Below are positions 1,792-41,700 of a DNA stretch of 64,000 nucleotides, piece after piece; within the stretch, counting starts at the first letter, position 1; each line of letters begins with the position of its first letter. The position numbers and the translations under genes were made by a program. The stretch lies in the NCBI GenBank assembly GCA_040954595.2, contig CM082586.2:867630-931629 (forward strand), read 5' to 3'. This DNA is from Balanoglossus misakiensis. Lineage: Eukaryota > Animalia > Hemichordata. The notes beneath the pieces are model-generated. The model had not been told where the DNA came from. It did no database searches and saw only the letters and a program-made list of their open reading frames with translations.

Positions 1792-4295
1792 TTATTCATA
1801 TACGTTTCTGTTTTTTCTCTTTGTCTGTGGTTTCTGCTTATTGGAAGGGAAGGTTATTTTGAATAGCTCCCACAATATTAAACCGAACACTAATATACAG
1901 AGTGGAACCTGACAAATTGCCCAAATGGTATAGTCGATTGCAGTAATGAACCACTGAAATGCAGGATGACCGCTTATGGTATCCCAACACTTGGTCATTG
2001 ATTGCCTTAGATAAAATGGTAATAGTATATTTAGGAGGAGTGTGACCACCAGCATTGCTGCTGCTGAAAGGCGTCTTCCAAATGTGTATATGGAATGTGT
2101 AATGAACCACTGAAATGCAGGATGACCGCTTATGGTATCCCAACACTTGGTCATTGATTGCCTTAGATCAAATGGTAATAGTATATTTAGGAGGAGTGTG
2201 ACCACCAGCATTGCTGTTGCTAAAAGGCGTCTTCCAAATGTGTATATGGAATGTGTAATGAACCACTGAAATGCAGGATGACCGCTTATGGTATCCCAAC
2301 ACTTGGTCATTGATTGCCTTAGATCAAATGTTAATAACATGTTTAGGAGGAGTGTGACCACCAGCATTGCTGCTGCTGAAAGGCGTCTTCCAAACGTGTA
2401 TATGAAACCAATGCTGGTTTGATATCTACCATCTGGTGGTGGAGCTTCTCCAACTGTTTTGGCCTTAGACAAGAACTCATCCACTTTTCGGGCAACTCTG
2501 TCTGTCGAACTACTGTCATCTGGAACCACAGGGATGACGTTGCCAACGGAAGTGACACCAGCGTGTTCTAAAAAACATGAAAAAGAATGAGAATAGAAGA
2601 TGAATAGTTTTTCGCAATGCAACCCAACCAATACACGCACAATCACACCCTGTGTAACACTTTGAATATTCTTGTTTCCAGGTCAGAGAATTAAAGACAT
2701 GAATGCCAATTTCAAAAGAGCCACCCTACACCACATCTTGGTGGTTGTAACACCTTTCCAGAATAGTAAGAACACCCCGCCAGCATGCTACACCTATCAC
2801 GTTTGACTCCGACGTATAAATGTCATACAGTTGGCATTCCTAGAAGATTATAGTTCATATGCGTTAAAATTGGACTTACTAAAGCTTTGGGTAACGTCGG
2901 CAATTCCATCTACAGTGACCTGAAGCAACGCATCGTAAGTCAAAGGTCGAATGAAGAAACCGCCCGGTAAATTCAGTGCCAAGACTCGGCGCAGTGAGTC
3001 CCATATCGCGCTGAAGACTCCATTTGGAATGCGTTGGAAGACCTGCCTTACTAGTCTTGGGGAATCTGGCAAACCATTCTTGAATCTGAATGTGGCGAGG
3101 TCGTTGATTGATGGCCGTAGTTTCTCAACCATCACGTTTGGAGCTTCCCGGTAATGTTGGCTGGGTTCAACAGACAGCTTAGCCTGATACACCTTTACAA
3201 TTTCTGGCTTAGAGTCAATTCCTGGCTTAGAGTGGGTTTTGTGTATTTTGACTTGGAATATGCCGTCGGATTCACTTAGACCACTGATGAATGGATTCAG
3301 CTGAAAATACTGAATCAGATTTTCTGGAATTTCGTCGCCAGCCGTAACAACGAGGACAGTTTGGAAACCAGAAACTCTGCGAATCAAACAGACAAACCAC
3401 CGAACAAAGCGATGCAAGCGACTCTTCTGATTAAAACATTGGTTAAGTTGGGCCTCGTAAAAGCTATACAGAGGAACTTCAGTTTGGAAAAATTCTTTCA
3501 AACGTTTGGTCTGCTCGCCGTTGAATTTGTCCCAAATTGTTATGCATCGTCTTCTTTCGGCAAGACTGTGGGCGATGACATCATTGTAATGCCAAAGCTG
3601 CTGCCATTTCTCTGCAAACAGACAATGGTCTTCCAAACGTTCAGATTTCTCATCTCCATAGATAACAAGAAACACCGACCCTGTGATAAGAGACACAATA
3701 TTTTTCTTTTATTAAAATAGACAACATTAGTTGAGTTTCGATTATGATGTCTCGGCGACGGCGACGAGTATGCTATGGCTTTGTCTACAACTTGCACAGT
3801 CCACGCCGACCATTCTGTTCCAGAATATCATTTGCTCCGAGAAAATTAGTTGGCTGTCATAGTAGCAGTCGAGAGCTAAATGAAACAAGTTCCCCCTGCT
3901 CCTAATTTAGGACACCCACGTCCCAATAATGTTACTGTTTGTTCCTTTCAGTTTCACGACCGATTTACTTCTACAGACAATGACAGAAAAGCCTCACCTT
4001 TCGGAAATGTGAACGAGTCGGTCAGATAGTCTAGTTCGTTCCAGTGATCGACGTTCGCGTCTCTTCGCGACGGGGTGAAGAGACTTCGTGTCTGCCTGGC
4101 GTCGATCACTATAACCGCTGTTCTACTGGCAAAGTTACCGAGGTCATGTCGCTTTGCGCCATTTTCCACCACCAGGAACTCACTCTGACCTTCGCCATTC
4201 TCCAGTATCGACTCGAGGAGTCCTCTGACTTTTTCCCCTGCTCCCCGAAAGCTTTGGAGTTTAGTTTCTATTGATATGTAATGTTTTGCAGGCAT
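1792..4295 (-). CDS. Family paralogue P1 (~624 aa): TIR-like domain, second alpha/beta domain, multiple TM helices
   Basis: Exons 4295-3998, 3680-2880 and 2567-1792 with GT-AG phase-1 introns and continuous frame. Motifs TKLQSF, VIVIDARQTRSLFTPSRRDANVDHWNEL and GSVFLVIYGDEKS. The last exon has three hydrophobic repeats plus a final TM segment. Confidence 0.85.
1943..2404 (-). repeat. Coding tandem repeat, 3 x 156 bp (52 aa), in the last exon of P1
   Basis: gtaatgaaccactgaaatgcagg recurs at 1943, 2099 and 2255. The unit is IYTFGRRLSAAAMLVVTLLLNxLLxFDLRQSMTKCWDTISGHPAFQWFITHS. Confidence 0.95.
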
Positions 4296-6009: not shown

Positions 6010-8133
6010 TCACTTGAATTTAACAATTCCTCGTTTCTGGTAAATCTCCGCGGCAGACAGCAACCCCAGCACTATTTGTTGGGTTTGATTGTCTTTATCC
6101 GTAGTTTTGGCAGCTCCGTCCGTGTGATCCATGTTCGACATGCGGTAAATTCTTGACGGGTCGATTCCTAGGCTGTTGGAGACAGTCACTACTGCTTTAT
6201 CGACTTCCTCCTTTGTTATCAAGTCAATGTGTGTTATTATAACAAACACAGGAATTCCCCGTCCTAAAATGCATAAAAAATCGTGAAAATAGTGACTGTG
6301 TAGTTCCGTTGTCAGTTAACATAAACGAGATATAACTTACAATTTATTTACCCCTACTTTTTCATTGATAACAGCGACCTTAGTTTGTGATGTATTTTAA
6401 ACGCAGAATATGCATTTCACGAGCTTACGTGTATGATTTACTCAATGAAAGATTTAACCAAGTCAGTGCGAAAGAATATGAGTGAAGATCTAGCATACTT
6501 TCTTACAAATGCGACCACGCTGAAGCTCCAGGTCAGTGGTGAAATGAGTAACATTATAACTTGTCCTTCTTAGATGCAAACTTTTGTAGTGCAAAGGCTA
6601 ACATTTTTTTCGCAGCGGACTCCCAAAGTTTTTTTTTAATCTCCATCCTTTTCCCATAGAGTAAAGAGACAATTTTGCTATATGGAAAGATTACCTTTAG
6701 ACTGTGCAGCCTCAATCACAGCGGAACCGAGCTGGTCTAGCTCTGCCATACCCTTATGGACGATAGCTACTGCGTGGACCTCACCATGTTTTTCCTGAAA
6801 GAAATATCTTACAAGCGCTATCGGTGAATACCACGCCCAATAATCCAGTGGCGCGTTCGAAGGGTATTTCCCATCCAGAATGTCTTTGATAACCTTGACG
6901 GACCGGTCTTTCCCGCCTCTGGTGTGGATGTTTAGCAGAGTCTGACCAGGAACATCAATACACTGGAAACAACTGCCTTTCACGTCAATTTTGAACGGAG
7001 TCAAGACAGCAGTACCAGCGGCCGCTGCCTTCCATGTTGAAGCTAGTGGTGTGTGGTGCCCTGATACCGCCTGCATGTAAAACAACACGTCCTCTGTTAT
7101 ACAAACTTACGCCAAGTACTTGCTGCTATATTCCAAGGTACAAATGTTAAAATGTCTCTAATGTCAAGTGTTGTCCCGAGGTAGCTATCCACCAAACCTA
7201 CTCGGCATTTGTGACGGGCTTTTCTTAAACCAAGTCTGACGTAAATTAGTTCAAAAGGGCAGATTTTCTAATTTCTCCACACCTTGCTGTGAAGAAATCT
7301 GACTGGGGATATCTGTGATCAAATATGAATACCTGATGCTTACTTTAATAATGGTATTGATAGTGGATGATTTTCCGTGTCCTGGCGCGCCAATTAATAC
7401 TATGTTTTGACCATGGCATTTTTCCTTGATGTCACCTGCAAATGCAAGACATGAATGTACAATTATAGTGGTAACATGCATTCCATTGAAGTAAAACATT
7501 CAAAGAATACAGAAATGGATCATTTAAAAGTTGCTTTAACTACTCACACTCATGTATGTGCCTGTGAATGAATGAATGAATGAATGAATGAATGTATGTA
7601 TGTATGTATGTATGTATGTATGTATGTATGTATGTATGTATGTATGTATGTATGTATGTATGTATGTATGTATGTATGTATGTATGTATGTATGTATGTA
7701 TGTATGTATGTATGTATGTATGTATGTATGTATGTATGTATGTATGTATGTATGTATGTATGCATGCATGCATGCATGCATATGTATGTATGTATGTATG
7801 TATATATGTATGCAATGCTTACTTAAAGTAGCGATCCTCATTGTTCTTGTCTGCACATTGAATTCCAGATTTCTTGCCTTCAATTCCCTGATGGTACTAA
7901 ACGGATCCAAAACCACACTCTCTTCACCAGGCAGAGAAACGATTGTCCTCAGGATGATTTCATTGCCCGTTTCTCGAACATCCCTGAGGTCATCATCGGT
8001 CAGACCAAATTCTTCAATTCTCTCCTTTATCTTTACAACAATATCTACGACTCGATGTTCCTCTGAGCACAGGAATCGAACGGGATCTCGTGCTGTGTTG
8101 GGTCTCACCATAATTTCCACGACTGAGAGAGAT

Positions 8134-8226
<93 letters not shown>

Positions 8227-10067
8227 GTCGCTAACATAATTATATATGTATGTATAGAGGTTATAACACTCGCGAAGGACGCGATATTTTCCTATTCAAG
8301 TCATTATTAATTTTAATTGTCAAATGTTCCTTATTAAGGGAAAACCACCTTAATTTTTCAAAAAAGCTAATGAACTGTTTACATAACACGGTAGCAAGTT
8401 CAGCTCCTTCCTGTCATTGTGTATAAGTTGCGCCACTGTAGACAAACACGTATACTTCTATATTTAATTAATGTGTTCCAGGTATAACAAAACGAAAGCT
8501 TACTATTCAATGTATTATTCTTTTATTTCGAAGAGTTGCATGGAAACAGGTGAGTCATGGGAATTCCCGGAACCGCGGGTGACCAAATGAAAACGAAAGC
8601 CGATATCATTCATTGATTTTTAACGAATCGATTCAGTGCACCATGTTAAGATGTGTGACCATCGCGATCTACTTGTTTGAACGGAACGTGTAACCCATGT
8701 GTCCGCGTTCAAGTCTCATGGAACCATTACCTGTGATTTTTAGTCATGTTTTTTTATCTTATTGTGTGTATCTACTGCATGTTATACTAGTAAGCGTGTA
8801 TTCAGCTACATGTATAAGCAATACTGCTGTACATAATGCATTATTGTTGAAAAGTCAAGTCCGGACTGGAAACAACAATGACAATGGTCGTTACACAAAC
8901 GTGGACTATGGTGACAAGCAAAAAAGCTGAGTATTTGAGCATAACACAAGGAGCATGCGTATGACAATATAGCTCAATAATAACCAAGGGATAAATCGTT
9001 TGATTGTCAGGCATTCATGTATTTCATATGAAATACCTGTGCGTAATACACAAACTCTTCATATTTTGTTATATTTATCGATACTCACCTTCATCGCTTT
9101 TGGAAGGTTTAATTTTGAAAACAAGTTCCTCATACTTCAAATTTTGTACTTTAGTTCGTGGTTTGAGTTGCTGTTCGTGGCCGTCAATGATTTTCATAAG
9201 AACGACTTCGCTTCCGCCTTTTTTGGCTTTTGCAGTAACGTCTGCGGCCAGATTAAAGTGCGCGATATTCTCGCGAATATACTGAGCCAGATCAGAGACA
9301 ACGGTACTCTTTACATAGGGAAGACTGACGGGGTTGACTGACTCTATGTATCTGACAGGTATGGCGTAGGCTGAAAAAAAATAACGACTGTTTAATCAAA
9401 TACACGAACACTTGGTCTACGTGCTAAAGTATGAGAGAGCGAAATTGCCTCAAATTTTAAATTCAAAATTGCTGCCTGTGTTGTTAACGCCATTGGGGAA
9501 TGGAAAGTAGTGATTTTTTTAAACAAGACGGGGAGCCCCCTGTATTCCTCGTTGTTTTCATAAACGACTCACCAAACACTATAATGTTGAAAGAATTGTA
9601 ATGTTTGGAGGACTATCATTTTTCTGAAAATCTACTCGACACTATCTCAAGCATTTCAGTGATATCACATGCAAGTTAGCTTTGGGCGTAGCGCCATGTA
9701 CAGGTTACACAAAAGTCAGTGACATTTGCATAATTTCTTTATGTTTGGATGAACGTTTCCTCGTGCGGAAAAAATGGAAATATGACTTACTAGGCTCTCG
9801 CTGGGAAGTAAATTCTACAATGTTGTTTTTCTGAATGACTGATACTGGTTCAGAAAACTTCAATTTCCTTTTTTCTCCTTTGTCGTCCTTTAAAAGCAGA
9901 CCAACTTGATTGATATTGATATCGTCACCACTCAACCCGAACAGACCAGCCTTGCTCTTCAGTAGAAGCGCCAGTTCATGAACGGTGTCTGTCTCTTTGC
10001 ATGTCAATGGTATCTCGTTCTCACCAGCAGGTGGGTACTTCACGTAGATTTTCTTCTCGCCGCTCAT
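6010..10067 (-). CDS. Triple ubiquitin-like domain / IFI44-like P-loop GTPase fusion (~526 aa)
   Basis: Exons 10067-9791, 9370-9089, 8122-7823, 7435-7344, 7070-6695 and 6263-6010 total 1581 nt in frame. Motifs: G1 GAPGHGKSS, G3-like DVPG, IKDILDGKYP, VHAVAIV, G4-like IITHID and LGIDPSRIYRMSN, in the order known for IFI44/IFI44L. Exon 1 aligns by eye to ubiquitin (IYVK...LTCKETDTVHELALLLKSKAG...IQKNNIVEF). Confidence 0.8.
7565..7810. repeat. (TGAA)n/(TATG)n microsatellite, intronic
   Basis: Tetranucleotide array seen directly. It produces the spurious MYVC/HTYI ORFs. Confidence 0.97.
8137..8223. repeat. (AG)n microsatellite forming the polypyrimidine tract of the 8122 acceptor on the minus strand
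   Basis: Dinucleotide array seen directly, next to the acceptor. Confidence 0.97.
8489..8600. promoter_or_regulatory. Composite immune enhancer or alternative promoter: ISRE-like, AP-1, NF-kB, ISRE-like
   Basis: AAAACGAAAGC at 8489-8499, TGAGTCA at 8551-8557, GGGAATTCCC at 8559-8568 and GAAAACGAAAGC at 8589-8600. Confidence 0.65.
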
Positions 10068-11029: not shown

Positions 11030-13145
11030 ATGAAGCAATCGATAAAGATCTTCACCAAGCTCGAATCATTCAAATATGCACAAAATGAAGTTAAAGCGCT
11101 GGTCACTGATATATTTGAAGAAGAAATACGAAAGGGACAAATGACCGTGGAGAGCTATTCAGAAACAGAAAGCTCAGAAAAAGGCAGTTCGAATGGAAGT
11201 GATTGCACACACGGAGACAATGTAACTGAAACCGTATTCGTTGTATTGGATGCAAGACAAACTCGTGTGCTCATTACACCGCGGCGAAAAGACCCTGCAG
11301 TTGACCACTGGGATGAGCTGCGCAGACTGTCAGATGTCACAAATCCAAAAGGTAACTACAATGAAAACAGATTGAGTCGCACAGATGGACTGACCACTGA
11401 ATATGTATTCATCTGTCCAGAACATACAATGAAGCAAAGTGATTGTATAAATTGTTGCCAGTCTCATTTGATAAAAAACATTTTTGTATGAATTCTTCCA
11501 TGTGTTGACACAAGGAAAGAAAAAGGGCTGTGTGTTATCGGGTGATACATTCTATCATTATATGAGTCCATTACAGTCTAGATCTCAGGTGGGATTTTCA
11601 CTTTCGCTTTGAATTGGATTGGCGAACAAAGTGTTTCTTTTTTACTGTCTTGTTCGAAAAAATGGTCAGTACATTCCTTCTGTGCAGATCAAACTGATTT
11701 CATTGTAAACATATTTGTAAAGAATGATTTCACTTTGCACTGAAACAAAGGCGATATTGCTTCCTCAGGCAAATCGACACAAAAAACTTGACCATGCAAC
11801 ATCCGTCTTTATTTCAGGGTCAATTATGGTCATTATATATGGAGACGAAACCTCAAAAGATCTTAAGGATGATGTTATCATAGATGACAAATGGAACAGA
11901 GTATTCCAGTTCAATGATGAGCACTCCCCATACTCATTGTTGAATGGCAGATGCTTTTCTATGTGGCAGAAGTTCACTGAACACCAGAAGAAGACACTTC
12001 AAAATTACATGCATACCATTGCACTGTTTCCTTCGATGGAGGAAGTTGGAAATGTCCTGGTTGTTGGCAACAGTGACCAACTGGAATCATTCAGACAATA
12101 TATAGGACGACATCCTTTCCTGCACGTGCGCAATGGCGACCACCAAGACATGAAAGTTGACGAACTGTTTGTGCCTTCGTACGTCGAAGCAGCGACAGGG
12201 CCACCCCTTGTCAGGTTGTACCACTGCAATACAGTGAATGACGAGCCCATTAAGCTGTGCGATCGAGAACACGAGGCACTCCAGGATCAAGGATTCTATG
12301 AAGATAACGACATGTGGGAGAAGATGGGCGAGTGGTTGATGCTACGTTCTGCTGGTCGCCTTGTTGAAGAGCAGACATACATCATCGTCAACAAACTGGT
12401 GAAGATAGTGTGGCATTACCTCTCCAGTATATACAAGCATCTTTATAATATTCAGGTTGCCTTGGGATACGCCTTGCCTATGTTCGACCGAGTCATTCTT
12501 ATCAGTCATGATTGCGATTCGTGTTTTAAGGAGATCTACGAAAACAAAGAATGGGTGGACGGCTGTACGAGACAGTGTTTAGGTACAGTAGTCTTTTTTT
12601 AATCTCGCCAAACGGTATCTCTGGTAAGTCTAACTTTTTGCTATCTCGTTTCAGTAGTTTCCTCCCATGTATTCAAGATTGCTTTATAACGTGTTTGGTG
12701 ACTGTCTTTATTATCTCAATAAAGCCAGTCTATGAGTAACTGCCATGAGTGTTATTGATTACAAAGAAATTCAAAATCTGTGTTTACTATTTCGATTTCA
12801 GAATACCGAAATATCCACACGACTTCGCGACTTGACATTTTGCCCGTAGCAGTCGAAAAAACTCCAAAATCAATGGAAGAGAAAAGAATAATGGTAAAAA
12901 TCATGAAGAATTTCATCATGGAGGATCCCAGAAAAAGTTTCGGCGATATGGCCACTTTGCTGGGAAAACACAAGGATGACGATGACTGGATTCAGAAAAT
13001 GTACGTCTTGTATCTTTGCCATGCAGGATTTCAAAATGTCGATCACGACGAAGGTAGGATTTATGTGGGAATTATTTTTGCAAATCGTGATTATCAGCAC
13101 AAGATCACATTTGGTGATGTAACTATAGGTATTTTTTGTCAATGA
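11030..13145 (+). CDS. Family paralogue P2 (~476 aa), no clear C-terminal TM
   Basis: Exons 11030-11351, 11818-12582 and 12802-13145 with phase-1 introns. Motifs TKLESF, VVLDARQTRVLITPRRKDPAVDHWDEL, GSIMVIIYGD and SHDCDSCF. Confidence 0.85.
11591..11610. promoter_or_regulatory. Overlapping kB-like and ISRE element in P2 intron 1
   Basis: GGGATTTTCACTTTCGCTTT. The 16-mer TTTTCACTTTCGCTTT also occurs at 29787 and 34324. Confidence 0.55.
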
Positions 13146-15327: not shown

Positions 15328-17582
15328 ATGCATAAAAATAAAGTGTTGGTTTACCACAAATTGGCATCCTTCGGTGCTGCTGCGAAGGCGGTGAAGTCAT
15401 TGCTTCAAGAGATGGAGATGCAGGACGTTGTTGTTGAGGATTACAACAACACATCCAAAGTCTTGACTGACAGAGCATCGACTTCCGTTGTTGTCGTCAT
15501 CGACGCAAGGCAAACACGCACACTGATAACTCCAGAACGCCGTGACGCAAATGTGGACCATTGGGCGGAATTGGAAATGATATCAGAAGAAGTCACAGGT
15601 AAGCTGAGTCACCAGAATGAAGGAACTACACTTCTCATGGGGTCGAAAAAAGTTACCAGCGGATACACACCGATACAGGCAATTGCATTCAATGTTCACC
15701 GTGTTCTTCTTTTTCAGATTCAATCTTGTTAGTTGTGTATGGCGACGGCAAGTCGAAAAACCTGGATGACAACACAACTGTGGGCGGACATTGGCTCACC
15801 ACCTGGAAGTATAATGATCCTATCGCCCATCACCTTGGGGAGAGAAAGAGGTGTTTTTCTATCGAGAATTCATTCAATGGTTTTCAGAAAGCTCATCTTG
15901 AAGAGTTCATCCGCCTTGGTCCACTAACGCCGAAGACAGAAGGAGAGTCAAACGTGATTCAGTTTGGTGATGCTGGTGATTCTATCGACAGACTGATTCA
16001 TGATCATCCCTTCGTCACTGAAATACAAGGGAACGAAAACGTCGGTGACACGTTGGCCACGAAGAAATTCGGGTCACTGTGTTTCAAACGTTCCACCAAG
16101 TCCACTCAGCAAACGGCAAGACTATGCGTCGCCAAAAGGTTCCCCCCGATTCACGTTTGCCAGACACAGGACCCTATAAACTCCATTGAACGACAGCTGT
16201 CAGCTAAGATCCTGAAAACCTACGGGATAACCAAGACGGATTCTTCTTGTCGTAGCCGCAGTCGACAGGAAGACTCTCTGTTTGACCGCGCCATCCTAAC
16301 GTGCCACTGCGCCACATGTTACCAAATAGTCGCAGAGAACCGTGCAATGGTTACACACATACTGAAGAATGAATTAGGTGAGTGAAACTACGGACTTAAA
16401 TTACGGTTAAATTCACCTTGAAAGTGGTCATAGGTCATAACCCGTGGATCACAAATTGTCTGTAACTTTGTTCTAATAATTTAACAGATGCAGTTGGTAT
16501 CACTTTGAACGGAGACGCCTTTCCATGGCTTGCAAACGACCAAGAGTCTGTCTCCAAAACCATGGAGGAGCAAATCCCGACTATAAATACAAGAAACAAT
16601 ACAGCTCTTACTGAAGGTCTGAAGATGATCTCTCCAGAGAAAAAAGTGAAGTTATATATATGGCACGTACTTTTCTACTGGTCTCATCCACGTGATCGTC
16701 CAACCAATCTTCCGGATTATATGGCGGATCTTGTATTCAAAATGCTGAATAAGATACGTGTAAACAAAAAGATATTAACAGCGTTGTTGGTAGTGATAGT
16801 TATCAGCATATTGTACTGCAGATATAAGCCACTGGGTAAGTACAGAGCATATAGCTTAATTGCGATGAATAAAGGTAGAAATGAAGTATATCTTTGCCAA
16901 TTTACGACGTTGATACATCTGTCTATGGTCGTACAAATGTTCCAGCTGAGAGTAGCTCCATTGCTTTATTTTGGGTCTGGGTTCGAATGACGTAAATACA
17001 AGTCGATGTGATTTAACTCATTTGTCGATCACACTTTTTTTTCTCTCAAGATGTACCTAGTGCTCCTGGACAACCGGTTGTAATCGAGGGGAAATTCAAA
17101 GAATCAAGTGTGAAGCTTCAGTGGACACCGCCAAAGTCTGATGGTGGCAGCCCTGTGGTGTCTTACAACATCCAGAAGCTTGTCGGTAAAGATGGCCATT
17201 GGGTCAACGCCATGAAGAGTAATCTTCCCATAGCTGAAGTGGCAGGCATAACACAAGGCGCTGAGTATCAGTTCAGAGTTGCTGCTGAAAACGTCATTGG
17301 TATTGGTCCATTCAGTCAACCGAGCCAACCATACATTGCAAAGGGTAAGTGAAGTTTCATCAGATTGTACCAAGTGCTCTCGGAAAACCAGTTCCCGGAA
17401 GTTACACACCGAGGAGTCCAATTTTAAGCCAATCAGAAATATCTGCAAGTTCTGTGTCTCTGGGGATTGTGGGGTGAGTTAATTAAAACCTGGAGACCAA
17501 GCCTGACACAATTATCATTATTTCTATTGTTTCAGATACTGCAGAAGGTCATGTAAGTCAACAGATGGCTGCAGGTGGCTGA
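15328..17582 (+). CDS. Family paralogue P3 (~539 aa) with TM and C-terminal fibronectin type III domain
   Basis: Exons 15328-15598, 15718-16377, 16488-16835, 17051-17344 and 17536-17582, all phase 1. Family motifs and CHCATC are present. TM ILTALLVVIVISILY. FN3 reads DVPSAPGQP...LQWTPPKSDGGSPVVSY...YQFRVAAENVIGIGPFS. The last small exon is less certain. Confidence 0.85.
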
Positions 17583-19096
17583 TAGGATGTGAAGAACGAC
17601 TCAAGAATACTTTGCAAGTGCCTCATAACCTAAATATAATTAAAATACCATTGGGCGGTCCAGTAGGGGTGCCCATATTTGCTGCACTAATAGAACTGTA
17701 GTGTTATGAAAAGAACGAATTATGTATTTGGGGTCACATGTGTAGTCCATCAATTTGATGCTTATATATTCGACGCAAAAGAATCACTGGTCGCAAATAG
17801 GCCACCTGCAAATAATTTTCATGACCCCTGCATGACCTTTCATCCTCGTACTTCCGGTGTTGTTGAATCCATTAGTCTGATGAAAAACTATAATTGCAGT
17901 TGTATAGTCAATCACGTACTGAATTATCAAAGAGACTATTTTCAAGCAATATTTTACACAATTCTTGTAGCAAAATGATTTTTCTGTAGAATAGAGAAAA
18001 TGCATGAAGATATTTTTAAAACTCTCGATGACCCTCGAACAGTGTCATGGGGAAAAGAAATTACATTGGTAATTATGGTGGCAATTACTGGGATTTTATT
18101 ATGCTTATTTTCTGTGTTGTTTGGCGTGGAGAGGGACGTTCAAATAAAAATGTTGGGCTTACTTGTTATTTTGTATGCGATATCCGTCCTGTCGGACATG
18201 CCAGCAAAAGTAATCTTCATAGGTTTGTTTAGGCTCGAAGGTCACTGCGACAATATTGCAGCCTTTTTCAGCTAAATACTAAAACTATTTAAAACTGTTT
18301 TTGTCGTATGACCTTCATGCAATTATGTCAATGGATGACAACAGGCGTGCGATATACCTATACAATATCTCAAATGATCTATGATAGACCTTGCTACAGA
18401 TGTGCAGTTGATGAAGGTTTTACATGACAATAAGCGGAATTAAAATTAGCATATTTCACTACTATAAATGTAGCCCCTTTTGTTATAGCCCCTCTCGCTG
18501 GCTTTCGGTCATTCAACCAGATATATGGGTTGTACATCATTCTTTTTGTAACTTTTAACTGCTTGAATCAGCCGCTACAGTGCATCACGTGATGGCACCA
18601 TCTGCTCATCTATTTTGGGTTTCGCTCATTTAGATGTTTCCAGATTTCTCAGAATGACGACTAGCTCTCAAAACTTTCTCCTTTGGCAACATTCTAATTT
18701 AAGAAATGTGTTGCACGAAAAGATTACTAAGACTAGTTTCGTAGCTTCAACACAATTTTTACTACGGGCGATTCAGCTAAATTTGAACGGGCAAAACCAG
18801 AAATAAATGAGCGGGTGTTTGCCAGCGTGATCACGACGAATTCAAATTCAGTCAACTCAAAGTCGTGTTGACGGGCATGCGCAACATCGAATCACATTCT
18901 GTACAAATGACACCGGTTTCATAAAGACAACACGCCGTTGACAACGCCCCAATAGTATATTAAATGGCTAATTTTAACACATGCAAGCTGCTGCATGGTC
19001 TAAAGTTACAGTCAGATTGGACATTTGGCGATACAGCAGCACTGCGCAACGACTGTGAACACCAGCAAAGAAGAACACACAACCAAACTCTCCAAA

Positions 19097-21412
19097 ATGC
19101 ATGAAAATGAAGGCAAGTGGTATTTTTGTTGGGAGAGTGGATTGAAAGGATATCACGATTTGATATTATTCAATTTAAAGATAGTTTCATATAATCAGTG
19201 TATTGTTTTTATTCGAAGAAACCAAACGTCGCAATCCCGTTTGCGTAAACAACACTTAAAGCGAGTCTGCTTGTGATTTGGACTAACTTACAATCAAATG
19301 CCAAACTTTCTGGATAAGGTTTAAGTGTCAAGTTGAACTACAACGAATAGACACACGACGGAGTAATCTGTATTGATTTGACACACAAGTACCACGGAAT
19401 ACACGACTTGCATGCGCAGTTCATCATCAAAGAGGCTGCTCGATTAAGCAATTTTGAGCAGGTGTATACTTTCCTCTTCCTAGGCGCTCTGGCCAAAACA
19501 AGGCAGACGGTTTGCATTCACGTCAAACCAGAACTGTACGACACTGTCGGCAGAAGTGTTTACGAGCTACTGCAACCTCACCTGGAGCACGAGAACATGA
19601 ACATCGTGTTCAAAAAGGACTGCCATAAGGATGAGAAACTTATCGACCCGGTCACCATCATAATGGTTGTTGATGCTTCGTCTGATGAAGGACCCTCAGA
19701 GGCTAGAGAAGAGGTTGTCATGGTAGCGGAGAAGCTAGCCGCGCTGGAAAAGGAAGCTGTGCCAAAAGGTACGTCACTGACCGATTTTTAATCCCGCCCA
19801 GTCACGGTTGACAGTTTGACAAGAATTTTTCTGTGCATAATTCAGCACTGACCAGCTGTATAATTGGACTATTTACAATAACAATAGCAAGAGTGGGCAC
19901 CAAGGTCTCAGTTGCGAGCTTAGTTTGTTCTGTGTTGCTCAATCCGTTTTCATTGCAGAAGACAGCTTTTCAAAAAAATATTTTGCTTTGAACTACAGGT
20001 TCCATATTGGTCATCATCTATGGAGACGAATTGTCTAAAAACCTTGGCGAGGATGAATGGGTCGCTGATGACTGGATGAAGGCCTGGGAACAGCAAGACC
20101 CAGCTGCCTACGATTTGGCCATGAAAGGAAGATGTTTCAGCGTGTGGGACAGCCTCAACGAGACACAAACTAGCAAGCTGTGTCAGTATTTCACCGATAT
20201 CCCCAAAACCCTTGACGTGGTGCAAGTGGTCCGTACCTTGACAATTGGTGACACCGGCAAGCAACAGGTCTCCACCGCGCTCGACAAGCACCCGCTGCTG
20301 AAGAGGCTCTTCACGGACGAAGCGGAAACACGTGTCGAGTATTCTTATTTCCACTTCCCCCAAGCCACAGGCAGGGAACCCAGGCTCAGAATAGAGTACA
20401 ACGTCGCTATTCCGCCGCTGAAGGTGTGTGAAAGCGAAAACATCGCCGTCTCGCTGGAAGAACAACTTGCAGAAATGTTCACCACCAAATATGGCACTAA
20501 CACACGCAGCATCATCTCCGGTCAATATACAAAGATCCGTTATGAGCACGTGCTGTTGGCATGTCACTGTGAAGAGTGCTTCAACATTCTCGCAGAAAAC
20601 AAGGAGCAAGTTTCTTTAAAATTGAGTAAGTCTATTCTCATATTACATCTCTCTCTCTCTCTCTGCCCATCTATTTATCCATCTATCCCTATCTCTGTTG
20701 ACGGAACGCAATTTGGGTTATTCTTTCTCAATTAATTAAACTTGGCAAAATCTCTTATTACAACTAATCTTTTTCTCTTTCAGGGAAAGTGGGAATCTTC
20801 CCCATAATTGATTCAGAGCCACTTATTGATGAAAGCAAGGCCGACATGGTAGCTGATAAGACCCTGCAGTATGTCAACGACGTAAGACAGAACACCGGCC
20901 AACGCCCAATAGAAGAGTCAGAGATGAGTGGAAAGGGTCTGTTAGAGGCGTACATATACCACACGTGTCAGAATGCACAGCCGTTCAGCAAAACACGCAG
21001 CAAAGCCATTCCTATAGCGGTGGGGTTGGCTTGCGTCCTACTGGCAGGCACGTTGGCCGGAACGCTAACAACTGTGAACAAGCCGAAGATTCCTGAGCCG
21101 GGGGACCCTGGGTATCAGCAAAGTCCAAACGGTCAGGGAGGTCAAGGCGATGAGGGAGGTCAAGGTGACCAGGGCGATGAGGGAGAAGAGACCGATCAAG
21201 GATATCAGGGACTCTCCACTCCGTCAACAAAGACAGAGACAACAACAAACCTCGATGTAATCGTGCACGCCACTGACGAAACCATGACAACGCCTCCCAC
21301 CGAGAAACCAGACCACCATGATCACGTCTACACCACGCCGCCGACACTGACCAACTTCACTAATATTACTGAACCAAATACTACACTTGTACCGACACCC
21401 TCAATGCAGTGA
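19097..21412 (+). CDS. Family paralogue P4 (~518 aa): signature motif lost; TM, Gly-X-Y repeats and Thr-rich stalk
   Basis: Exons 19097-19112 (GC donor, tentative), 19484-19768, 19999-20625 and 20784-21412. GSILVIIYGD and CHCEECF are kept but RQTR/DHWxEL are replaced. TM AIPIAVGLACVLLAGTLAGTL. Confidence 0.8.
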
Positions 21413-22239: not shown

Positions 22240-25200
22240 ATGGAAATGGCCTCGAAGACTTCACAAACAGGTTTGTGTGTAGAACTCTTAACAGATCGAG
22301 TGGCCGGGCTTTCTGTTACTGAAATATCTGGGCGAAAATCAAATTGTAGTCTTATGTTGCTTCATTCTCAAATTTAGTTAATTTTTTTGTCGCGCCCCAA
22401 AAAACACAAACTGCCCTAGGCTGTCTCAGGTCTTTTCTAAATCAGCCCACGGAGGTATAAATTAACGGTTCACATGATTTGACCTAGTTATTCGAACCAT
22501 GGTGGTAAGATTGGACTCCGCTCTCATTTCCGTCATTATCAACAAACAATCCTCACAACAGGCCTGTATATATTCATTGCAATCCACAGTCTTCGTCTAC
22601 GCGAAGCTTCAGTCATTCATCCCGGCCGCTACAGAAGTCATTAAACTACTGAAGGAAGTATTGAAAGATGACGGCGTTGAAGTCAAGTCATACAACGAGT
22701 ACAATAAAGACGTTGATAAGAAGAACGCAACGATTGTCGTGGTCATTGACTCACGCCAGACCAGGACACTGATCACCCCGGACAGAGGGGACAAAACTGT
22801 AGACCATGTCAGTGAGCTAGCTAAGTTAGAATTGGAAACGTCCCCACAAGGTAAGTAGCAATTCAACACTCTAGCCACACAGTTATTTTATTGTACTCAA
22901 CAAATGCAAATCTAGCAAATAAAATGTTTTATGACATTACCAACAAGCTAGAAGTAAACAGATATATGGTTTTGCTTTAGAAGAACCAGAGTCATCGCTT
23001 AGGATTATCTCAGTCTAAACGTAGGGCCCACTTTAAAGTGAAAATGAAACAGAAAGGGTTATTCAATAGAGGTAGGCAATTGTGCGAGAACCAAACATAC
23101 ACCCGTCAAATATGTGTTACATATATATCACCAACGTTTTGTTGAAAAACAAACAAATATTATTTCAAATATTCTGCTAATTACGTCGTTGTTGCCAGAA
23201 AAACACAGCTTATAATAATATCTTCTATCGGTGATATGCAAATTAGAAATAATATAGTCCCAGTTGAAGCTGTTAAATAAAAGGGGTTGCTATATTTCAA
23301 ATTGTTGCCATGACGAACAGTATAAAATAAAACCTGCATTTATACATCAAATTAAGAAGCAGCTTTCACCTTCCTGTATCTGTGTGGTACGTTCTAAACT
23401 AATTACGTGCTCATTACACTATATCGGTAATTCATATACATATGCAAATATGACAATAGGGACTACTTTCTGCTTGTAAACATTGAACGCCAAGAACGCT
23501 GGAGCTAAGCATTACGATACGCGGAACGTGGTTATTTTTGAACATTTTGGCATGTTGATTGATTAACCTTCTCAACTATGTTAGAAGAACAAAACATTTA
23601 GCTGTCAGTATTTTTGACAACTTCAAAATTTACGAACATTTCTCGCTATCCCCACATGTTCTCGAATATTGCCGATGCGATCTCGCGACCTCCGATTCTT
23701 ACCACTGATGACCTGACCCAGCATGACCTTATTTTGCATAACAAACTTGGCCAATGAACGAACGTCTCTGGTTTCATCATCACTGCCGCGTCACTATAGT
23801 TTATATCAGTACGCCATGATCGAAACTTCAATTTTCGTCCGTCAAATCAGAGGGAATTATGCCGAACGCATCGCATCACTATTCGATATCCTTATTATTA
23901 AACTATCAAGTTATGTTTCAATATTGCAGGCTCCATATTGATATTGATATACGGAGACGAAAAATCTCGAAACCTAAGAGAGGGAGAACATATTGGTGAA
24001 CACTGGCTTCAAACCTGGCAATTCAATGACACCAACGCCCGCGGTCTTGCAGATGGTGGAAAGATTTTCAGTTTGTACACAACGTTCACTGAGACTCAGA
24101 AAGACAAACTCCATCAGTACTTCCGGTACATCCCTCTGACGCCTGATGTCCGGGCAAACACAAGCACCATCGTTATCGGCGAGAAGTGCAAACAGCAAGT
24201 ATCCCGCTTGTTCAGCGATCATCCAATGTACAGAAAATTGGCCACAGACGAGACTGGGACTGAAACAGAATATTATGGTTACTACCATTTCAAAACCACG
24301 AAAGGAAAAGAGCCGAGATTTCGCATAGACTGCAATTCGTCTATACGTGAAGTTAAAGTATGTGAAAGCTCTGACGTCGCTAAGGCATTGGAGAGCCAGT
24401 TTATGGAACTAAACGCAACGAAATATGGAGCTGCAAACGCTGGGCCAGAGCTCTTAAAAAGACAGCCTGATGTCTACGACAACGCTCTGCTGTCCTGCCA
24501 CTGTGGTAAATGCTACAAGATGATAATGGACAAACAACAAGTGGCTACTACGGAATTAAGTAAGTTTACGTTTAAATTCTTTGAGTGTGAAGTTATGCTT
24601 CGCGTTTTCTATGGTGACAGTAGTCCTGTATCAAAAGTAAAAAAGTCATTTCAGCAATGTAGATGTATTCGAGCACGCCAAAAATCATGTCCAAAAATTT
24701 GAAATATTGTTATGTATTGCGTCATTGTCAGAATGTTTTCTTTGCAGAAAAGGCTGGTATTGGCCTCAATAATGATGTCGTCCCCATTGTGAGTGAAGAT
24801 ATGGCTGATGAAGTTGCAGAACCCGCCAGAAAGTACGTCAATGATGTGAGAAGCAAGACCAATGAAAAATCCATTGAGAGTTTGGATATGAGTGGCAAGT
24901 CTTTGTTGGCGGCGTCCATACTTACCGCCTGCCAGTCGGCTAAACAGAAATCCTTTTGGGAAAAGTATAGGAAGTACATCTTGATAGCCTGCGTTATAAT
25001 TTTGTTTGTTGTCGTATTTCTGGCAATAATGTTTAATCTCGTAATTTCGCCGACATCAACAGACACGACCATGAACATGACCACACAAGAATATGTAACA
25101 AACACGACCATGAACATGACAACACCAGAATATGCCACTTTAAACACAACAACCAAGAGTGCAACAACAGTGAATGCCACGACTGGTACCACCAACCACA

Positions 25201-25253
25201 CTGACGATAACACAGGACAGACACCGACAAGTTCCACACACCAAACAACTTAG
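22240..25253 (+). CDS. Family paralogue P5 (~475 aa) with TM and Thr-rich stalk carrying N-glycosylation sequons
   Basis: Exons 22240-22270, 22590-22850, 23930-24559 and 24748-25253, phase 1. Motifs VVVIDSRQTRTLITPDRGDKTVDHVSEL and CHCGKCY. TM YILIACVIILFVVVFLAIMF. Sequons NMT, NTT, NAT and NHT follow. Confidence 0.87.
23430..23860. mobile_element. Interspersed repeat fragment in a P5 intron
   Basis: Homologous by eye to 5150-5560. It partly accounts for this unusually long intron. Confidence 0.55.
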
Positions 25254-33982: not shown

Positions 33983-36900
33983 ATGGCAACGGGGCAAGTT
34001 CTCGGGCAAGGTATGTTTGTGTCAAATTGTCCCTCTGTCTACTCCATTTCTAATTTGCTTTCCGCCACAACTGAACTTCCGGTAATTCCGGTATGGCTAC
34101 ATGAAATACCCTTACTGTTGTTTACTGTACTCGTAGTTCGTAATTAGGTAAAACTATTTGCCAGACTAACCACGTTCTGTATAGTGTTTAATGTCCAGTG
34201 TTCATAAAACATTATTGTGGTATAGATCTAAATCACAAAACCTGGTATCGTGAATATTCACAGTGGAGGTAACTTGACTATATAATTACCATGCTAATCA
34301 TACTATATTGGAATGTTGAGTTATTTTCACTTTCGCTTTTGTGACAGTGGGTGCACATTGAATTCGCTTAGCTAGCAAACGTGATGAACCTGAAGCAACT
34401 TAAGTCACGTCACAAGTCCAATTAATGTACGAATATTAAAGTTGTCAGAACTTTCGACTTATGATACAAGCAACTTAAAATGGGGACAATGTGTATATGT
34501 TATAAAGGCACGGCAATTGCAAGAAAAGGCGTCTATAGGACGAATCACCTGGTTCTGATATATTTGAAGCTGGAGTACATAATTTCCTGTTCGATTCACG
34601 TACCTATAAGGCTTGCTGGTTTTGAATATTTAATTTGTTATTCATCGTGTTGCCCTTCAGGTCCGAGACAGAAAGTTTACGTGTTTACCAAGTTACACAG
34701 CTTCAAAAAGGCGGCTGAGGAGGTCAAAGTTCTTCTGAAAAAAGTGTGCAAAGACATGAATGAAATTGACGTCGAGGATTATCCTCCCGGGGACTACCAG
34801 CTGCAGCCTGGACAGTTCCTAGGGGTAACTGTAGTGGTGGTTATCGATGCCAGACAAACGAGGGCAGCAATTACACCGGAGCGAAGAGACGACAATGTGA
34901 ACCATTGGAGCAACTTAGACATGCTGTCTACCAAACGAACAGCCCCACAAGGTAATTGAACAATGCTATAAAGGCCTGTTCTTGTTACTGTCATGTCATT
35001 TCAAAGGTCAAGTCAACAGAGCAAAGATAAGACAAATAATCATGGAATTGGTTGCCTTATAATCACGGAAGTTTTATATAATTCCAACTAGTGAGCATTT
35101 TTAATAACAAGACAAACTAGCCAGGATATCATGTAAAGAACGTTGTAAGTGAGATTGAAGTGCATGTATACTATAATGAAATGTAATTTAATTTTTGCTA
35201 CCCGCAAATGCCACAATAAGCGACGTTTTGGCAACATGAACACTGTAGTACTGTTTTGTGGTTATTTCACCAAGTTCTGTTTACTTTCGGCAGGTTCCAT
35301 TTTGATTGTGATATACGGAGATGAGAGCTCTAAAGGTGGAACTGACTTGGTATCTCAGAAATGGTACCAGGTGTGGAAGTACAATGACCCCCTTGCTTAT
35401 CAAGCTGCAGAGAGGGGAACCGTCTTTACGATTAATAAGGTTTTTAAAGTTGAACAGGAAGAAAAGATTCGAAATTATCTGAACGACGCCCTCCTCCTAC
35501 CACACGTTACAGGGGCAATGAATATCCTCTTTCTTGCACCTCAAATGGAGATCGAGAAAATTCCCGTCTTGAATTCCAATCCTTTTCTGATTCAGAACGA
35601 GAGTGAGGAATGCCGAAAGTGTGGCAGGAAGTTCTGGGGATTTTCCCACGTAAGAGATTCTTACAGCCAAAACAGAAAAACAGACCCTTTGAAATTGAAA
35701 GTATACCATTATGATTGGCCCAGAATAAGTTCCGAGGATGCAACTCCTCAACTTGGTTTGGGAAAACTCTTTCCTGCATCCGGCAAAGCCAGCTGTGACT
35801 GTGGTCCACTAGACAAGTTTGATCGACTGATCTTCACATGTGAGACTGAAGACAGTTTCAAGAAATCGTGCAGAATTAACCCGCCCTCGGAAATAGGAGA
35901 TGCACTCAGAGTTGAATTAGGTAAGAACAACCTAGTGCCAGTAATACCCCCTTGCAGTGAGCCCTGACACATTGTGAAACAAGATACTAAAATCACTCAT
36001 AGTCACCGATATATATATATGCTCTGTATTAACGTGTGTACTATATAATTTCGAGTTCTGGTAATGTAAAAGAGGCCAATGCTACTCCCAGAACGCTGAG
36101 ATGATACAGGTCAATCTTTTTGACTGCGTTCTCCCTTTATCGGGAGATCTGGGGCAGAAGGTGTATTGGTCCAGTCATCCAATTACCCATGCATGTGTAA
36201 ACATTTAAGGTACAAATGTGCAAACTCACTATTTTCTATCATTGCATGAAGTAAAAATCTCTTTCGGTATTTGATTTCTGATAGAAAGCATTGGTGTGCT
36301 TCTGCGTGGTGAAGCTCTGCCTCTGGCCACTGGTGACATGAAAGAAAGCAATGACGCTATGCTTGGCGTTATCCGGTCACTTAAACAACGAACACAAGAA
36401 AATGGTGTCCTTGAAGAAGATCAATTCACAACTGGTCCTGAGGAAGATACAGTGCATATACTGGGCAAGAAAATTGATCGTTCTACACTCATTAGGCTCT
36501 ATGTGTATCACATCATCCAGATTCCAACACTGCTAGGTACGAAACCTGTGAAAATTTGAGTTTCTTTTCTTCAAAGTAAAACTTTCTTAAGTTGGTATGA
36601 TTTCTGCGAAGTAATGATTTTCCGAAGCCAATATCACGAGAAAACGTTTAAAGACTAGGTAATTTATTAAAAATTGAAGCACCATTTACTTCTGTATTAT
36701 TCGTTGTAGTTACTCGCTTTTGAAGATTGAGTTTTCATACTTAGTTATCAACATGATTATATGCAAACAGTTCTGAGTTATTGTTCATGTGTAGATCCAG
36801 AGTTGACTTTGAAAGGTGAAGATAAAAGAAAAGTGGAAAATCAAAATGCAGAGGTAAGCATGCTCTTGGATACAGAAAGTCGACAGTCATAACTCTTGAT

Positions 36901-38744: not shown

Positions 38745-41700
38745 ATGGCGTCTGTCGATGATCCAGGTGAGTGCAGAAGACCCTTTAACAAATTCCAACC
38801 CTTTCCATATGCCCCAGGAGAAACATTGATAACTTCACATGAAAAGTAGAGAAGATGTTTCAGTTAGCAACTATAGAATGTCGACAAGCCAACGCATTGT
38901 TCAAATAGTGTACACCATTCCTGTAAGACTGCTACCAATCAATTCGTGTTGGGGACACGTACTGTATTTAAAAACGGCATTTAACACTAATTACATGCAG
39001 ATTTGTTTATATATTAGACACATGTGCCTTTTCGAAGTGTTTTGATGTTTAGAATTGTTATCATAGGATTACTAGTGGACATTTCACCATAGTATTGTAG
39101 GCCTACAGGTTACACACTTTACAAAGCGAAAGACTCGGGTATGAAACTCACAGGTTGGGTCAGCATCTCAAATTGATTTATAACAAGTTTACAGGTCAAA
39201 AGGGGGGCTTTGTATTTAGCGCTGACCGATGGACATATTCTGACACAGCTGAACACAGCAACAGAACAAACCACATATCAGAGCTTATTGATTAATTAAC
39301 CCTTGCCGGACAGGTGGTACAGAAATAGAGACAACTAAACTTGTTTTGTCAGTTGAAACTTGGTATAAATTGGACATTGTCCCCTCTTCTCGTGTTATCA
39401 TTGTGAACCCACTTCAGAGTTCAAAAGTTTGTTGTCTTTCCACCTATCTGAATCTGTTATATACAGTCTAGTGTTTCAATGATATAGATGTTAAAGCACT
39501 GTGAATTGTATATGGAAAGATTTAGGTTTTTTAGATTGAGTAGAACTTTCTGAATTACCTGCAAATTATGAAAACCATCGATGTGAACCTACGAAACACC
39601 GTTTTCAAAATTATAAAAAAAAATTGAAATGCAAATGTATTACATTTATATGCATCATCCGTAAATTTTCTTTCAGCTCTGGAGCAGAAATTAATCACCT
39701 ATGCAAAACTGCAATCGTTTCGCAAGGCAGAGGAACGTATCACAAAACTCCTTAGTGACCTACTGAACGATGACGATGTCGCCATAGAACAAGGTGACCT
39801 GGGTCTGAAACCTTCAGAAGATGCCATTGCTCAGACCGGAGCTCTTGTCATTGATGCCCGGCAGACAAGAACGTTGGTGACTCCAAAAAGACGAGACAAG
39901 AATGTTGATCATTGGGATGAAATTGATAAAATTGCCTCTAAAGATACAATGCCACCAGGTAGGTGGCACAATATGGCAGTACATGCACACCCTTTTCATA
40001 AGTTTGGCACCCTCACGCAGCCATTTTGGATTTGAACTCAAAGCGAGGCTAACGGGGAAACCCCTTTGATGTGATTGGTCGACCTTTCACCGTTGACCTG
40101 CTCAGATGCTCCTGATAAAAGCAAAGAAATATTTTCTCACTAACCTTGTGATTGCCTTTCAGGTTCCTTTCTGATTTTCATCTATGGCGACGAATCATCG
40201 AAGGACTTAGAAGAGGGCAGAGTCATTTCAACTCGGTGGATGACCACTTGGAAATATGCTGACACGAACGCACACTCCTTAGCTGAGAAGGGCCGAGTGT
40301 TTAGCCTTGCAGAAAACTTCAACAAGACGCAGGAAGAGAAACTCAAGAAATATTTTCAAGATATTCCCCTTTACCCGACGACGACAAATAAGAATGTCAA
40401 CGTGCTCCTTTTGGCGACAGATGCCGGACAAGAAGAGGTGCGTGGAACACTGAAGGAGCATCCACTCGTCAGTGAGACCACGCAAGACACAGATGACCAT
40501 CCCGCAGAGTACCAGTACTTCAAGTTCAAGGAAAAGCCAAAGAACATCCCATCAATCAAAATCTTCTACAGGGATGTGACTCAGCCCCTCAAATTCTGTG
40601 GTCCAGATGACTTCCAGGAACTGTCTTCGAAATTTCTGACAGAGCATCTCGTCAGCGATAAACTCGGCACAAAAGGATACCCCAAGATTAATAGAGTCCT
40701 GCTCGCGTGTCACTGCGCAGATTGCTTCCAGAAGCTCTGTATCCAACATTCTGAAATTACAAAGCACGTGAAGAAGGAACTGAGTAAGTATAGAAATGTT
40801 AAATCAATGTTCAATATGGTAACCCTTAGCCTCACGATGTGAATATAACGAATATCTTTACCATTTTCACAGAGAAAGTTGGAATCAAGTTAATTGGAGA
40901 TGTGATACCAATCTTGAGCGAGCACATACCCAACCGTGATGACTCGATACTACAGAGAAGCCGAGATATAATCATGGATTTCAAGAAGGGCACGAAAGAG
41001 AAGCACCTAAAAGAAAAGAGGCTCAGACTACAGGACAGACAACTCCCTAGTTTGAAGATGTTGTATACATACCACGCAGTTCAAATACCGTCTAGCAAGC
41101 CGGAACACCAAATGGAGAAAAATGAAGAAGGGTCACGCGAACAGCAGCCTGAGAGTGCCTCTGACATTGGTCCGGATGCTATGAAAGACGTGGACGAGCC
41201 CAAAGAAACTGACCATTTTCTGGGAGGTACCCAGAAATCTGGCGATGCAGAGAGTGAGAGAGTGGTCACAACTAATGTGGAAGGAGCCTATACCCAAAGC
41301 CCCCAGCACGCCATCGTTGTCAAAGTACCTGACGACAGTTCCAGTGATGATGATATTGAACAAGACACCCCCGACGATAAAATACAAGAACCCCAAGTAA
41401 GGGTTCAAACTGCCCCTGCAGTAACCAGTCCAGGAGAAGCAGTCGTGTATGCAGATGAACCAGGTGCTTCTCAATCCCCTCCGCCAGGACAGACCAATCA
41501 GGAGGGTCCCAGAACCACACATGGCGGACAGGAGAGGCGTGATGACTTAGAAGGCGACGGTGATGGGGACGCCGCTTCTGGTGATGACGATGCTGACAGA
41601 TTGGAGAAAGGGCGGCTTGTGATACAAGACAGTGATACCGATGAGAGTCGCACATCTGAGTCCAAGCAGCCACAGGACAAAGCGCAACAGCCAAGAAGAA

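What the first reader, a model, noticed from the sequence alone, without database searches (positions are those of the whole stretch)
11030..12030. N-terminal domain has a TIR/SEFIR-like topology with a conserved Glu in DHWxEL: possible NADase or signalling enzyme
Seen across paralogues (P2 shown): hydrophobic strand (KIFTK), helix, strand, strand VVVID, a conserved RQTR/TPxRRD loop, helix DHWxEL, strand ILxxIYGD, W...W.FND, strand xFS, helix. Known: TIR domains have a five-stranded alpha/beta fold with a catalytic Glu in the WxxxEL helix after strand C (SARM1, plant and bacterial TIRs). Inference: the conserved R, D, H and E residues form an active site, possibly for NAD+ or nucleotide cleavage, in a divergent TIR-like clade.
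Basis: inference. Interest (0 to 1): 0.8.

Follow-up and report, generated by a model that had tools for sequence, protein, structure and literature searches.

The report
Acorn-worm pseudo-GTPase family, probably not TIR
A ten-copy gene cluster, with relatives found only in acorn worms, encodes a strongly conserved domain whose predicted fold matches GTPase domains better than TIR immune enzymes, so it is likely a GTPase relic that would act as a signalling scaffold; the proposed NAD-cutting activity is untested and less likely.

Summary
The motifs are real, but the domain is split by a GT-AG intron (11352-11817) and belongs to P2, one of ten tandem paralogues. All named relatives come from three enteropneust hemichordates.

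Structure searches nevertheless rank P-loop GTPase domains first (ranks 1-38 and 1-40, best Z 9.9-10.1). TIRs appear at Z 7.5-7.8.

The motif is D-H-W-x-E, not TIR's WxxxE. A TIR_2 profile detects five other TIR-superfamily clades. This domain detects none of them, and no GTPase family either.

An intact GTPase gene sits inside the cluster. It has a phase-1 intron in the equivalent loop and appears homologous to a third domain found in some relatives.

Best reading (0.45): a P-loop-less pseudo-GTPase whose conserved charged cap would bind a partner or phosphate-bearing ligand, often membrane-anchored. A divergent TIR-like NADase remains possible (about 0.2). The Glu superposition could not be tested.

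The parts
11030..11351 (+). P2 exon 1: strands 1-3, helix 1, the conserved RQTR/TP/RxD loop and the DHWDEL helix of the N-terminal domain (ND)
   Evidence: donor AAG|GTAACT
11303..11320 (+). DHWDEL; the Glu is acidic in 37 of 37 homologue rows, with Trp at E-2
11352..11817 (+). phase-1 GT-AG intron between ND helix C and strand D; same site in all 10 paralogues
11818..12582 (+). P2 exon 2: ND strands 4-5 and last helix (to about 12030), then domain 2 (from NVLVVG at 12051), whose predicted element order is G-domain-like
12802..13145 (+). P2 exon 3: end of domain 2 and a helical tail; the spliced model is 476 aa with no hydrophobic anchor (max KD19 1.37)
1792..4295 (-). paralogue P1 (3 exons)
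6010..10067 (-). intact P-loop GTPase gene inside the cluster (G1 GAPGHGKS, G3 DVPG, G4 THID; three N-terminal repeats); phase-1 intron 6694-6264 just before its G4 strand
15328..17583 (+). paralogue P3: ND, domain 2, hydrophobic segment, FN3 exon 17051-17344 (predicted type II layout)
19507..21412 (+). paralogue P4: lacks the RQTR/DHW motifs; its partner P0030 lacks them too
22586..25253 (+). paralogue P5 with C-terminal hydrophobic segment
26871..28624 (+). paralogue P6 (first intron is in frame) with hydrophobic segment
30017..31289 (+). paralogue P7, exons 1-2 (a third exon lies near 31600)
34666..35964 (+). paralogue P8, recent copy of P7 with Asn in place of the conserved Glu; exons 1-2
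39682..41882 (+). paralogue P9 with hydrophobic segment
43372..45173 (+). paralogue P10 with hydrophobic segment

Best explanation
The N-terminal domain lacks a P-loop and G3/G4 motifs and is likely a decayed GTPase (G) domain, a pseudo-GTPase predicted not to hydrolyse GTP, whose conserved charged cap (K20, D71, R73-Q74-R76, T80-P81, R83, D85, D89-H90-E93, D114) would bind a conserved partner or a phosphate-bearing ligand. The family likely arose by tandem duplication and decay of a GTPase like the intact gene inside the cluster, giving ND + domain 2, and in some relatives a third dead G domain. Many members add a membrane anchor, some with an outer FN3, Kazal or LDLa domain, and would act as cytosol-facing signalling scaffolds or type II receptors. 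Shown: motifs, gene structure, loss of G motifs, ranking of structural matches, and domain 3's profile match to the neighbour. Inferred: G-domain ancestry of ND and domain 2, ligand or partner binding, membrane topology.
For: VIA against 48,161 chains, P0001 model: ranks 1-38 are GTPase G domains by title or chain (LRRK2 Roc Z 9.9, rmsd 3.6, 141 aligned; GIMAP7 Z 9.2), and 46 of 50 rows are P-loop NTPases. Model of P2's orthologue P0022: ranks 1-40 are P-loop proteins (GPN GTPase Z 10.1, rmsd 3.8, 153 aligned), and the two-G-domain Der aligns across residues 14-462 (Z 8.8, rmsd 16.1). Second look: 49 of 50 rows are GTPases. Strand 3 ends in an invariant Asp and strand 4 in G-D, as in the Ras consensus built here. 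Domain 3 of five relatives matches the neighbouring GTPase over about 180 columns (prob 71-83%, E 4e-5 to 1e-6; reversed control E 0.43). Phase-1 introns fall in the loop before the G4-equivalent strand in the neighbour, in ND (10 of 10 paralogues) and in domain 2 (donor sites in 8 of 8 checked). Precedent for tandem pseudoGTPase domains: p190RhoGAP pG1-pG2 (PMC5593906, passages).
Against: ND has five strands and no antiparallel beta2 hairpin, with only about 3 residues between strand 1 and helix 1; this fits TIR, receiver or flavodoxin folds equally well. The Z gap to TIRs is only about 2 units, G domains are larger and more numerous in the library, and the tool notes typical best Z of 7-8 for unmatched models. 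Foldseek finds nothing at E<=1e-3. ND shows no profile match to Ras, Roc, TRAFAC or the neighbour, and domain 2 matches none either. The intron clue was noticed after the fact, is offset by about 3 codons, and the neighbour's other introns are missing from ND. Dense polar conservation (R, D, H, E) is more typical of an active site than of a scaffold.
Confidence: 0.45

Rival explanations
1. ND is an extremely divergent TIR-superfamily enzyme that cleaves NAD+ or another N-glycoside using E93 after self-association.
For: Element order betaA-alphaA to betaE-alphaE with an acid on helix C. TIR NADases are among the top 50 (TIR-STING Z 7.8, 126 aligned; Cat1 Z 7.6), and TLR15 TIR appears in Foldseek. 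ND vs ThsB scores 21.3 with E aligned to E, above 25 of 25 block shuffles. Unrecognised animal TIR-like NADases exist (TeTIR, 10.64898/2026.09.21.753143).
Against: GTPases outrank TIRs. W is at E-2. The ThsB hint (E 0.011) is matched by reversed-sequence controls (E 0.0098), was one of seven families in the shuffle test, and misplaces strand C. TIR_2 finds DUF4062, NDT, CAP12, SEFIR and ThsB at E<=1.4e-4, while ND finds none. Asp replaces Glu in 3 of 37 rows and Asn in P8.
Confidence: 0.2
2. ND is a new enzyme or ligand sensor on the common 2-1-3-4-5 alpha/beta core, of uncertain ancestry, acting on a substrate other than NAD+ (a nucleotide, phospholipid or phosphoprotein).
For: Dense conservation of K, R, D, H, E at the strand ends; no profile link to either superfamily; motif-less subfamily P4/P0030 kept across species like a pseudoenzyme.
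Against: No substrate evidence; structural matches are consistently G domains rather than a mix.
Confidence: 0.2
3. ND is a non-catalytic TIR/SEFIR-like adaptor that signals by homotypic assembly.
For: TRAM TIR Z 7.7; TLR15 TIR in Foldseek; receptor-like layouts.
Against: Same lack of profile link as above (the SEFIR profile held only 2 sequences); GTPases rank higher.
Confidence: 0.1

Closest known systems
Tandem pseudoGTPases (p190RhoGAP pG1-pG2; AAGAB psGD, class i)
   Same: Predicted G-like fold with all G motifs degraded; two such domains in a row; likely scaffold role (PMC5593906 and PMC12490416, passages).
   Different: ND lacks the beta2 hairpin, carries a long conserved charged loop, has no RhoGAP domain and is often followed by a hydrophobic anchor; no sequence link was shown.
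GIMAP/AIG1, Roc and EngA G domains
   Same: Top structural matches; GIMAP C-terminal anchors and multi-G-domain members (recalled) parallel the layout.
   Different: No G1, G3 or G4 motif; five strands; no Pfam or profile match.
TIR NADases (ThsB, CAP12/TIR-STING, Cat1, SARM1)
   Same: Five-strand alpha/beta order, conserved acid on helix C, Z 7.5-7.8.
   Different: W at E-2, strand C ends in Asp, about 22 residues from strand C to the Glu with a unique RQTR/TPxRRD loop, no profile link, ranked below G domains.
TeTIR (TEP1 extended TIR)
   Same: A precedent for an animal TIR-like NADase missed by standard profiles.
   Different: TeTIR lies directly upstream of NACHT and was detected by HMM-HMM comparison; these proteins have no NACHT match, and ND does not match DUF4062 (DUF4062 as a stand-in is my assumption).

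Membership tests
TIR NADase | five alternating strands and helices (flavodoxin-like core) | tested here: met
   DSSP of two models; aligns to TIR and REC domains at Z 7.5-7.8; strand order inferred from those alignments
TIR NADase | nearest solved folds are TIR domains | tested here: inconclusive
   TIRs listed at ranks 39 and 50, 41 and 44; G domains about 2 Z higher
TIR NADase | helix-C WxxxE motif (PMC10641520) | tested here: not met
   W.E 29 of 37, W...E 2 of 37; references ThsB 10 of 20 and TIR_2 8 of 38, so the motif is not universal
TIR NADase | Glu within 3 A of ThsB E85 after superposition (criterion of 10.64898/2026.04.20.719644) | not testable with these tools
   tools return no coordinates or residue pairs
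TIR superfamily (TIR_2, ThsB, CAP12, SEFIR, DUF4062, NDT) | significant profile-profile link to other clades | tested here: not met
   ND best E 0.011 (ThsB), equal to reversed controls; TIR_2 control links all five others at E<=1.4e-4. SEFIR (2) and NDT (5) profiles are shallow and all references are bacterial
TIR NADase | Glu-dependent NAD+ cleavage | not testable with these tools
   needs a bench assay
TIR NADase | self-association | not tested
TeTIR | directly upstream of a NACHT ATPase | tested here: not met
   no NACHT NTPase family hit in 39 members (only NCH2 at E 0.089 in 2); gene models
active TRAFAC GTPase | G1 GxxxxGK[ST], G3 DxxG, G4 [NT]KxD | tested here: not met
   ND consensus has KLxSF, no DxxG, and YGD
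active TRAFAC GTPase | six strands with antiparallel beta2 | tested here: not met
   ND has five strands; domain 2 shows extra strands after helix 1
pseudoGTPase (class i) | GTPase-like fold with degraded G motifs (PMC5593906) | tested here: met
   at the level of predicted models: best Z 9.9 and 10.1 to G domains over 141-153 residues; motifs absent
pseudoGTPase (class i) | descent from a GTPase shown by sequence | tested here: inconclusive
   ND and domain 2 not significant; domain 3 of five relatives prob 71-83% to the neighbour GTPase; shared intron position is indirect
pseudoGTPase (class i) | no nucleotide binding or hydrolysis | not testable with these tools
   needs a binding assay

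The most novel reading that the evidence does not exclude
ND is an active signalling enzyme, an NADase or other N-glycoside hydrolase using E93. It is either a TIR too remote for the profiles that join all known TIR clades, or a dead GTPase fold that evolved a TIR-like catalytic helix on its own. Fused to a pseudo-GTPase and often to a membrane anchor with variable outer domains, it would define a new class of type II immune receptors in a deuterostome lineage.
Probability: 0.2. Interest if true: 0.8.

Novelty: new variant of a known kind. Interest (0 to 1): 0.45.

Why it matters
The family has no Pfam model, and I found no paper on it in eight library searches (listings only). It has been kept as ten or more orthologous subfamilies across acorn worms, with one domain far more conserved than the rest. 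If it is a pseudo-GTPase, it shows a G domain being stripped to five strands and given a new conserved surface next to its likely parent gene. If it is an NADase, it adds a new animal TIR-like enzyme class. A single NAD+ assay and one superposition would separate the two readings. It also warns that 'five strands plus a Glu after strand 3' does not by itself identify a TIR.

Tried and rejected
- Pfam and PADLOC scans: no family for ND or domain 2.
- PDB sequence profiles: no hit below E 0.3.
- Word-indexed search with P6 found nothing.
- No relatives in prokaryote genomes or viral contigs by single-protein pattern search (close relatives only).
- ESM Atlas: only unnamed eukaryotic clusters at 0.84-0.87; the nearest named clusters were PIN/XRN-like at 0.79-0.80, too low to use. 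The Atlas model of P0016 was poor.
- Viral fold library: nothing at E<=1e-3; Ras-like, AIG1, VWA and TIR rows are mixed.
- A CAP12-like 'RxNV..E' resemblance did not hold with a 30-sequence profile (E 0.28).
- Domain 2 vs GTPases, the neighbour or domain 3: not significant. It was not folded alone, so its fold is barely tested.
- The IFI44-like label for the neighbour is recalled and was not confirmed; Pfam gives MMR_HSR1.
- No RNA holder was listed; this is no evidence on expression.
- No whole genome is held.
- Earlier scan findings: none.
- Literature searches listed no paper on this family by title or abstract start.

Full report
Setting. The window is intron-rich animal DNA with no genome held. 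It carries ten paralogues, P1 on the minus strand and P2-P10 on the plus strand. In all ten a canonical phase-1 GT-AG intron separates the DHWxEL exon from the SILxxYGD exon, and splicing gives stop-free frames. P2 models as 11030-11351, 11818-12582 and 12802-13145, 476 aa. The finding's span therefore covers two exons and an intron.

Observation. The motifs are present at the coordinates, with the corrections listed under the observation check. Across 37 homologue rows (two are isoforms), D71 and D138 are invariant, E93 is Glu in 34 and Asp in 3, and K20, Q74, R76, T80, P81, D85, D89, D114 and W134 are at 34-36 of 37. ND averages 42% pairwise identity against 19% for domain 2. The conservation is real and concentrated in ND.

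Range. A search of 1.84 billion representatives gave 38 hits; one is a spurious walnut titin-like protein. Of the other 37, I looked up 19, and all 19 are from Ptychodera flava, Glandiceps talaboti or Saccoglossus kowalevskii, named uncharacterized. A profile search gave 20 of 20 hits from Ptychodera or Glandiceps. In a quick tree (the careful search did not finish), P1, P2, P4, P9 and P10 each pair with one database protein at SH-aLRT 98-99 (P2 with P0022); P3, P5 and P6 fall in supported groups (95-99); P7 and P8 pair with each other and then with P0015 at 85. The expansion is therefore old and stably kept. No Pfam or PADLOC family covers ND.

Fold. AlphaFold models of P0001 (pLDDT 79, pTM 0.78) and P0022 (pLDDT 73, pTM 0.73) give ND five strands alternating with helices, with the Glu on the helix after strand 3. 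Foldseek finds nothing at E<=1e-3; its best rows mix small GTPases, flavodoxins and one TLR15 TIR. VIA against 48,161 chains puts GTPase G domains at ranks 1-38 (LRRK2 Roc Z 9.9, rmsd 3.6, 141 aligned). TIR-STING is at rank 39 (Z 7.8, rmsd 4.2, 126 aligned), FleQ REC at Z 7.7 and Cat1 at Z 7.6; a few chains in large complexes were assigned as GTPases from my own knowledge. The P0022 model repeats this: P-loop proteins at ranks 1-40 (best Z 10.1), TRAM TIR Z 7.7, TIR-STING Z 7.5. The second look gave 49 GTPases in 50 rows. G, TIR and receiver domains share this core (established knowledge), so the fold class is right, but it does not single out TIR. The gap is only about 2 Z units, and ND lacks the beta2 hairpin of true G domains.

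Sequence tests. I built reference profiles from prokaryotic genomes: TIR_2 38 sequences, ThsB 20, CAP12 30, DUF4062 13, NDT 5, SEFIR 2, Asgard Ras 30, Roc 10 and other TRAFAC 12; weak or stop-containing hits and one unpublished-genome locus were left out. TIR_2 detects ThsB, CAP12, SEFIR, DUF4062 and NDT at E from 1.7e-24 to 1.4e-4. ND detects none of them, and no GTPase profile either. Its best score is ThsB (E 0.011, 84 columns, Glu on Glu), which beats 25 of 25 block shuffles. Reversed controls reach E 0.0098, however, and the alignment shifts strand C against the model. The TIR helix-C motif is WxxxE (PMC10641520, passages). ND has W at E-2 in 29 of 37 rows and W...E in 2 of 37, while ThsB has W...E in 10 of 20 and TIR_2 in 8 of 38. 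The structural criterion used for animal TIRs, a Glu within 3 A of ThsB E85 (10.64898/2026.04.20.719644, abstract and passages), could not be applied. That preprint's supplementary TIR tables were not seen and might list hemichordate proteins.

Context. Between P1 and P2 lies an intact GTPase gene (10067-6010, minus strand) with G1, G3 and G4 motifs. Its Ptychodera orthologues hit MMR_HSR1 and show the same longest-contig length as most Ptychodera family members. Five relatives (P0008, P0014, P0020, P0027, P0045) carry a third domain that matches this GTPase over about 180 columns (prob 71-83%, E 4e-5 to 1e-6; reversed control E 0.43) but has no P-loop. Domain 2 shows a G-like element order in the P0022 model, and Der aligns across both domains, but it has no significant profile match. 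Phase-1 introns sit in the loop before the G4-equivalent strand in the neighbour, in ND and in domain 2. This clue was noticed after the fact, is offset by about three codons, and rests on my mapping of elements, so it is suggestive only.

Architecture. A hydrophobic segment (KD19 >= 2.2) follows domain 2 in 5 of 7 modelled window genes and in 16 of 46 database proteins; P2 has none. P3 continues into an FN3 exon, its relative P0010 into Kazal repeats, and P0034 has an LDLa domain. These layouts suggest type II receptors or tail-anchored scaffolds (inference).

Mechanism. Most likely ND is a class-i-type pseudoGTPase, as defined for p190RhoGAP pG1-pG2 and AAGAB (PMC5593906 and PMC12490416, passages). 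Its conserved charged cap would bind a partner or phosphate-bearing ligand on the cytosolic side (0.45). A divergent TIR-like NADase is kept at 0.2, because of the helix-C acid, the TIR rows and the TeTIR precedent (10.64898/2026.09.21.753143, abstract and first third of Results). An enzyme for another substrate is at 0.2 and a non-catalytic TIR adaptor at 0.1. An immune role is a guess from architecture and is not shown.

Verdict. This is a real, uncharacterised, lineage-restricted family. It works, on present evidence, like a tandem pseudo-GTPase scaffold, and it cannot be filed as a TIR: the WxxxE and profile tests failed and the decisive superposition was untestable. Novelty: new variant of a known kind. 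Interest 0.45.

Noticed in passing
window 6010-10067 (-): Intact GTPase gene with three N-terminal repeats that look ubiquitin-like by eye (no Pfam hit); orthologues P0048 and P0049; IFI44-like by recall only.
   Followed up: partly
window 19507-21412 (P4) and P0030: A subfamily lacking the RQTR/DHW motifs is kept across species (SH-aLRT 99), a natural inactive control or decoy.
   Followed up: partly
window 30017-31289 and 34666-35964: P7 and P8 are a recent duplication that includes downstream sequence; P8 has Asn in place of the conserved Glu.
   Followed up: partly
window 1795-2567 (-): P1's last exon holds about three near-identical hydrophobic repeats of roughly 47 residues, possibly several membrane segments.
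   Followed up: no
domain 2 of most paralogues, e.g. window 12486-12525: A conserved C-H-C-x-x-C-F motif after the DRVIL strand may bind a metal.
   Followed up: no
window 46088 onward: A different multi-exon gene starts here, with a DUF5586 hit (E 8.5e-7).
   Followed up: no
ESM Atlas clusters: Unnamed 177-194 aa eukaryotic clusters (rotifer, arthropod) score 0.84-0.87 to ND by features; possible remote relatives, below the tool's bar.
   Followed up: no
window 7570-7800 and 8140-8225: (TACA)n and (CT)n microsatellites in introns of the GTPase gene create spurious long ORFs.
   Followed up: no
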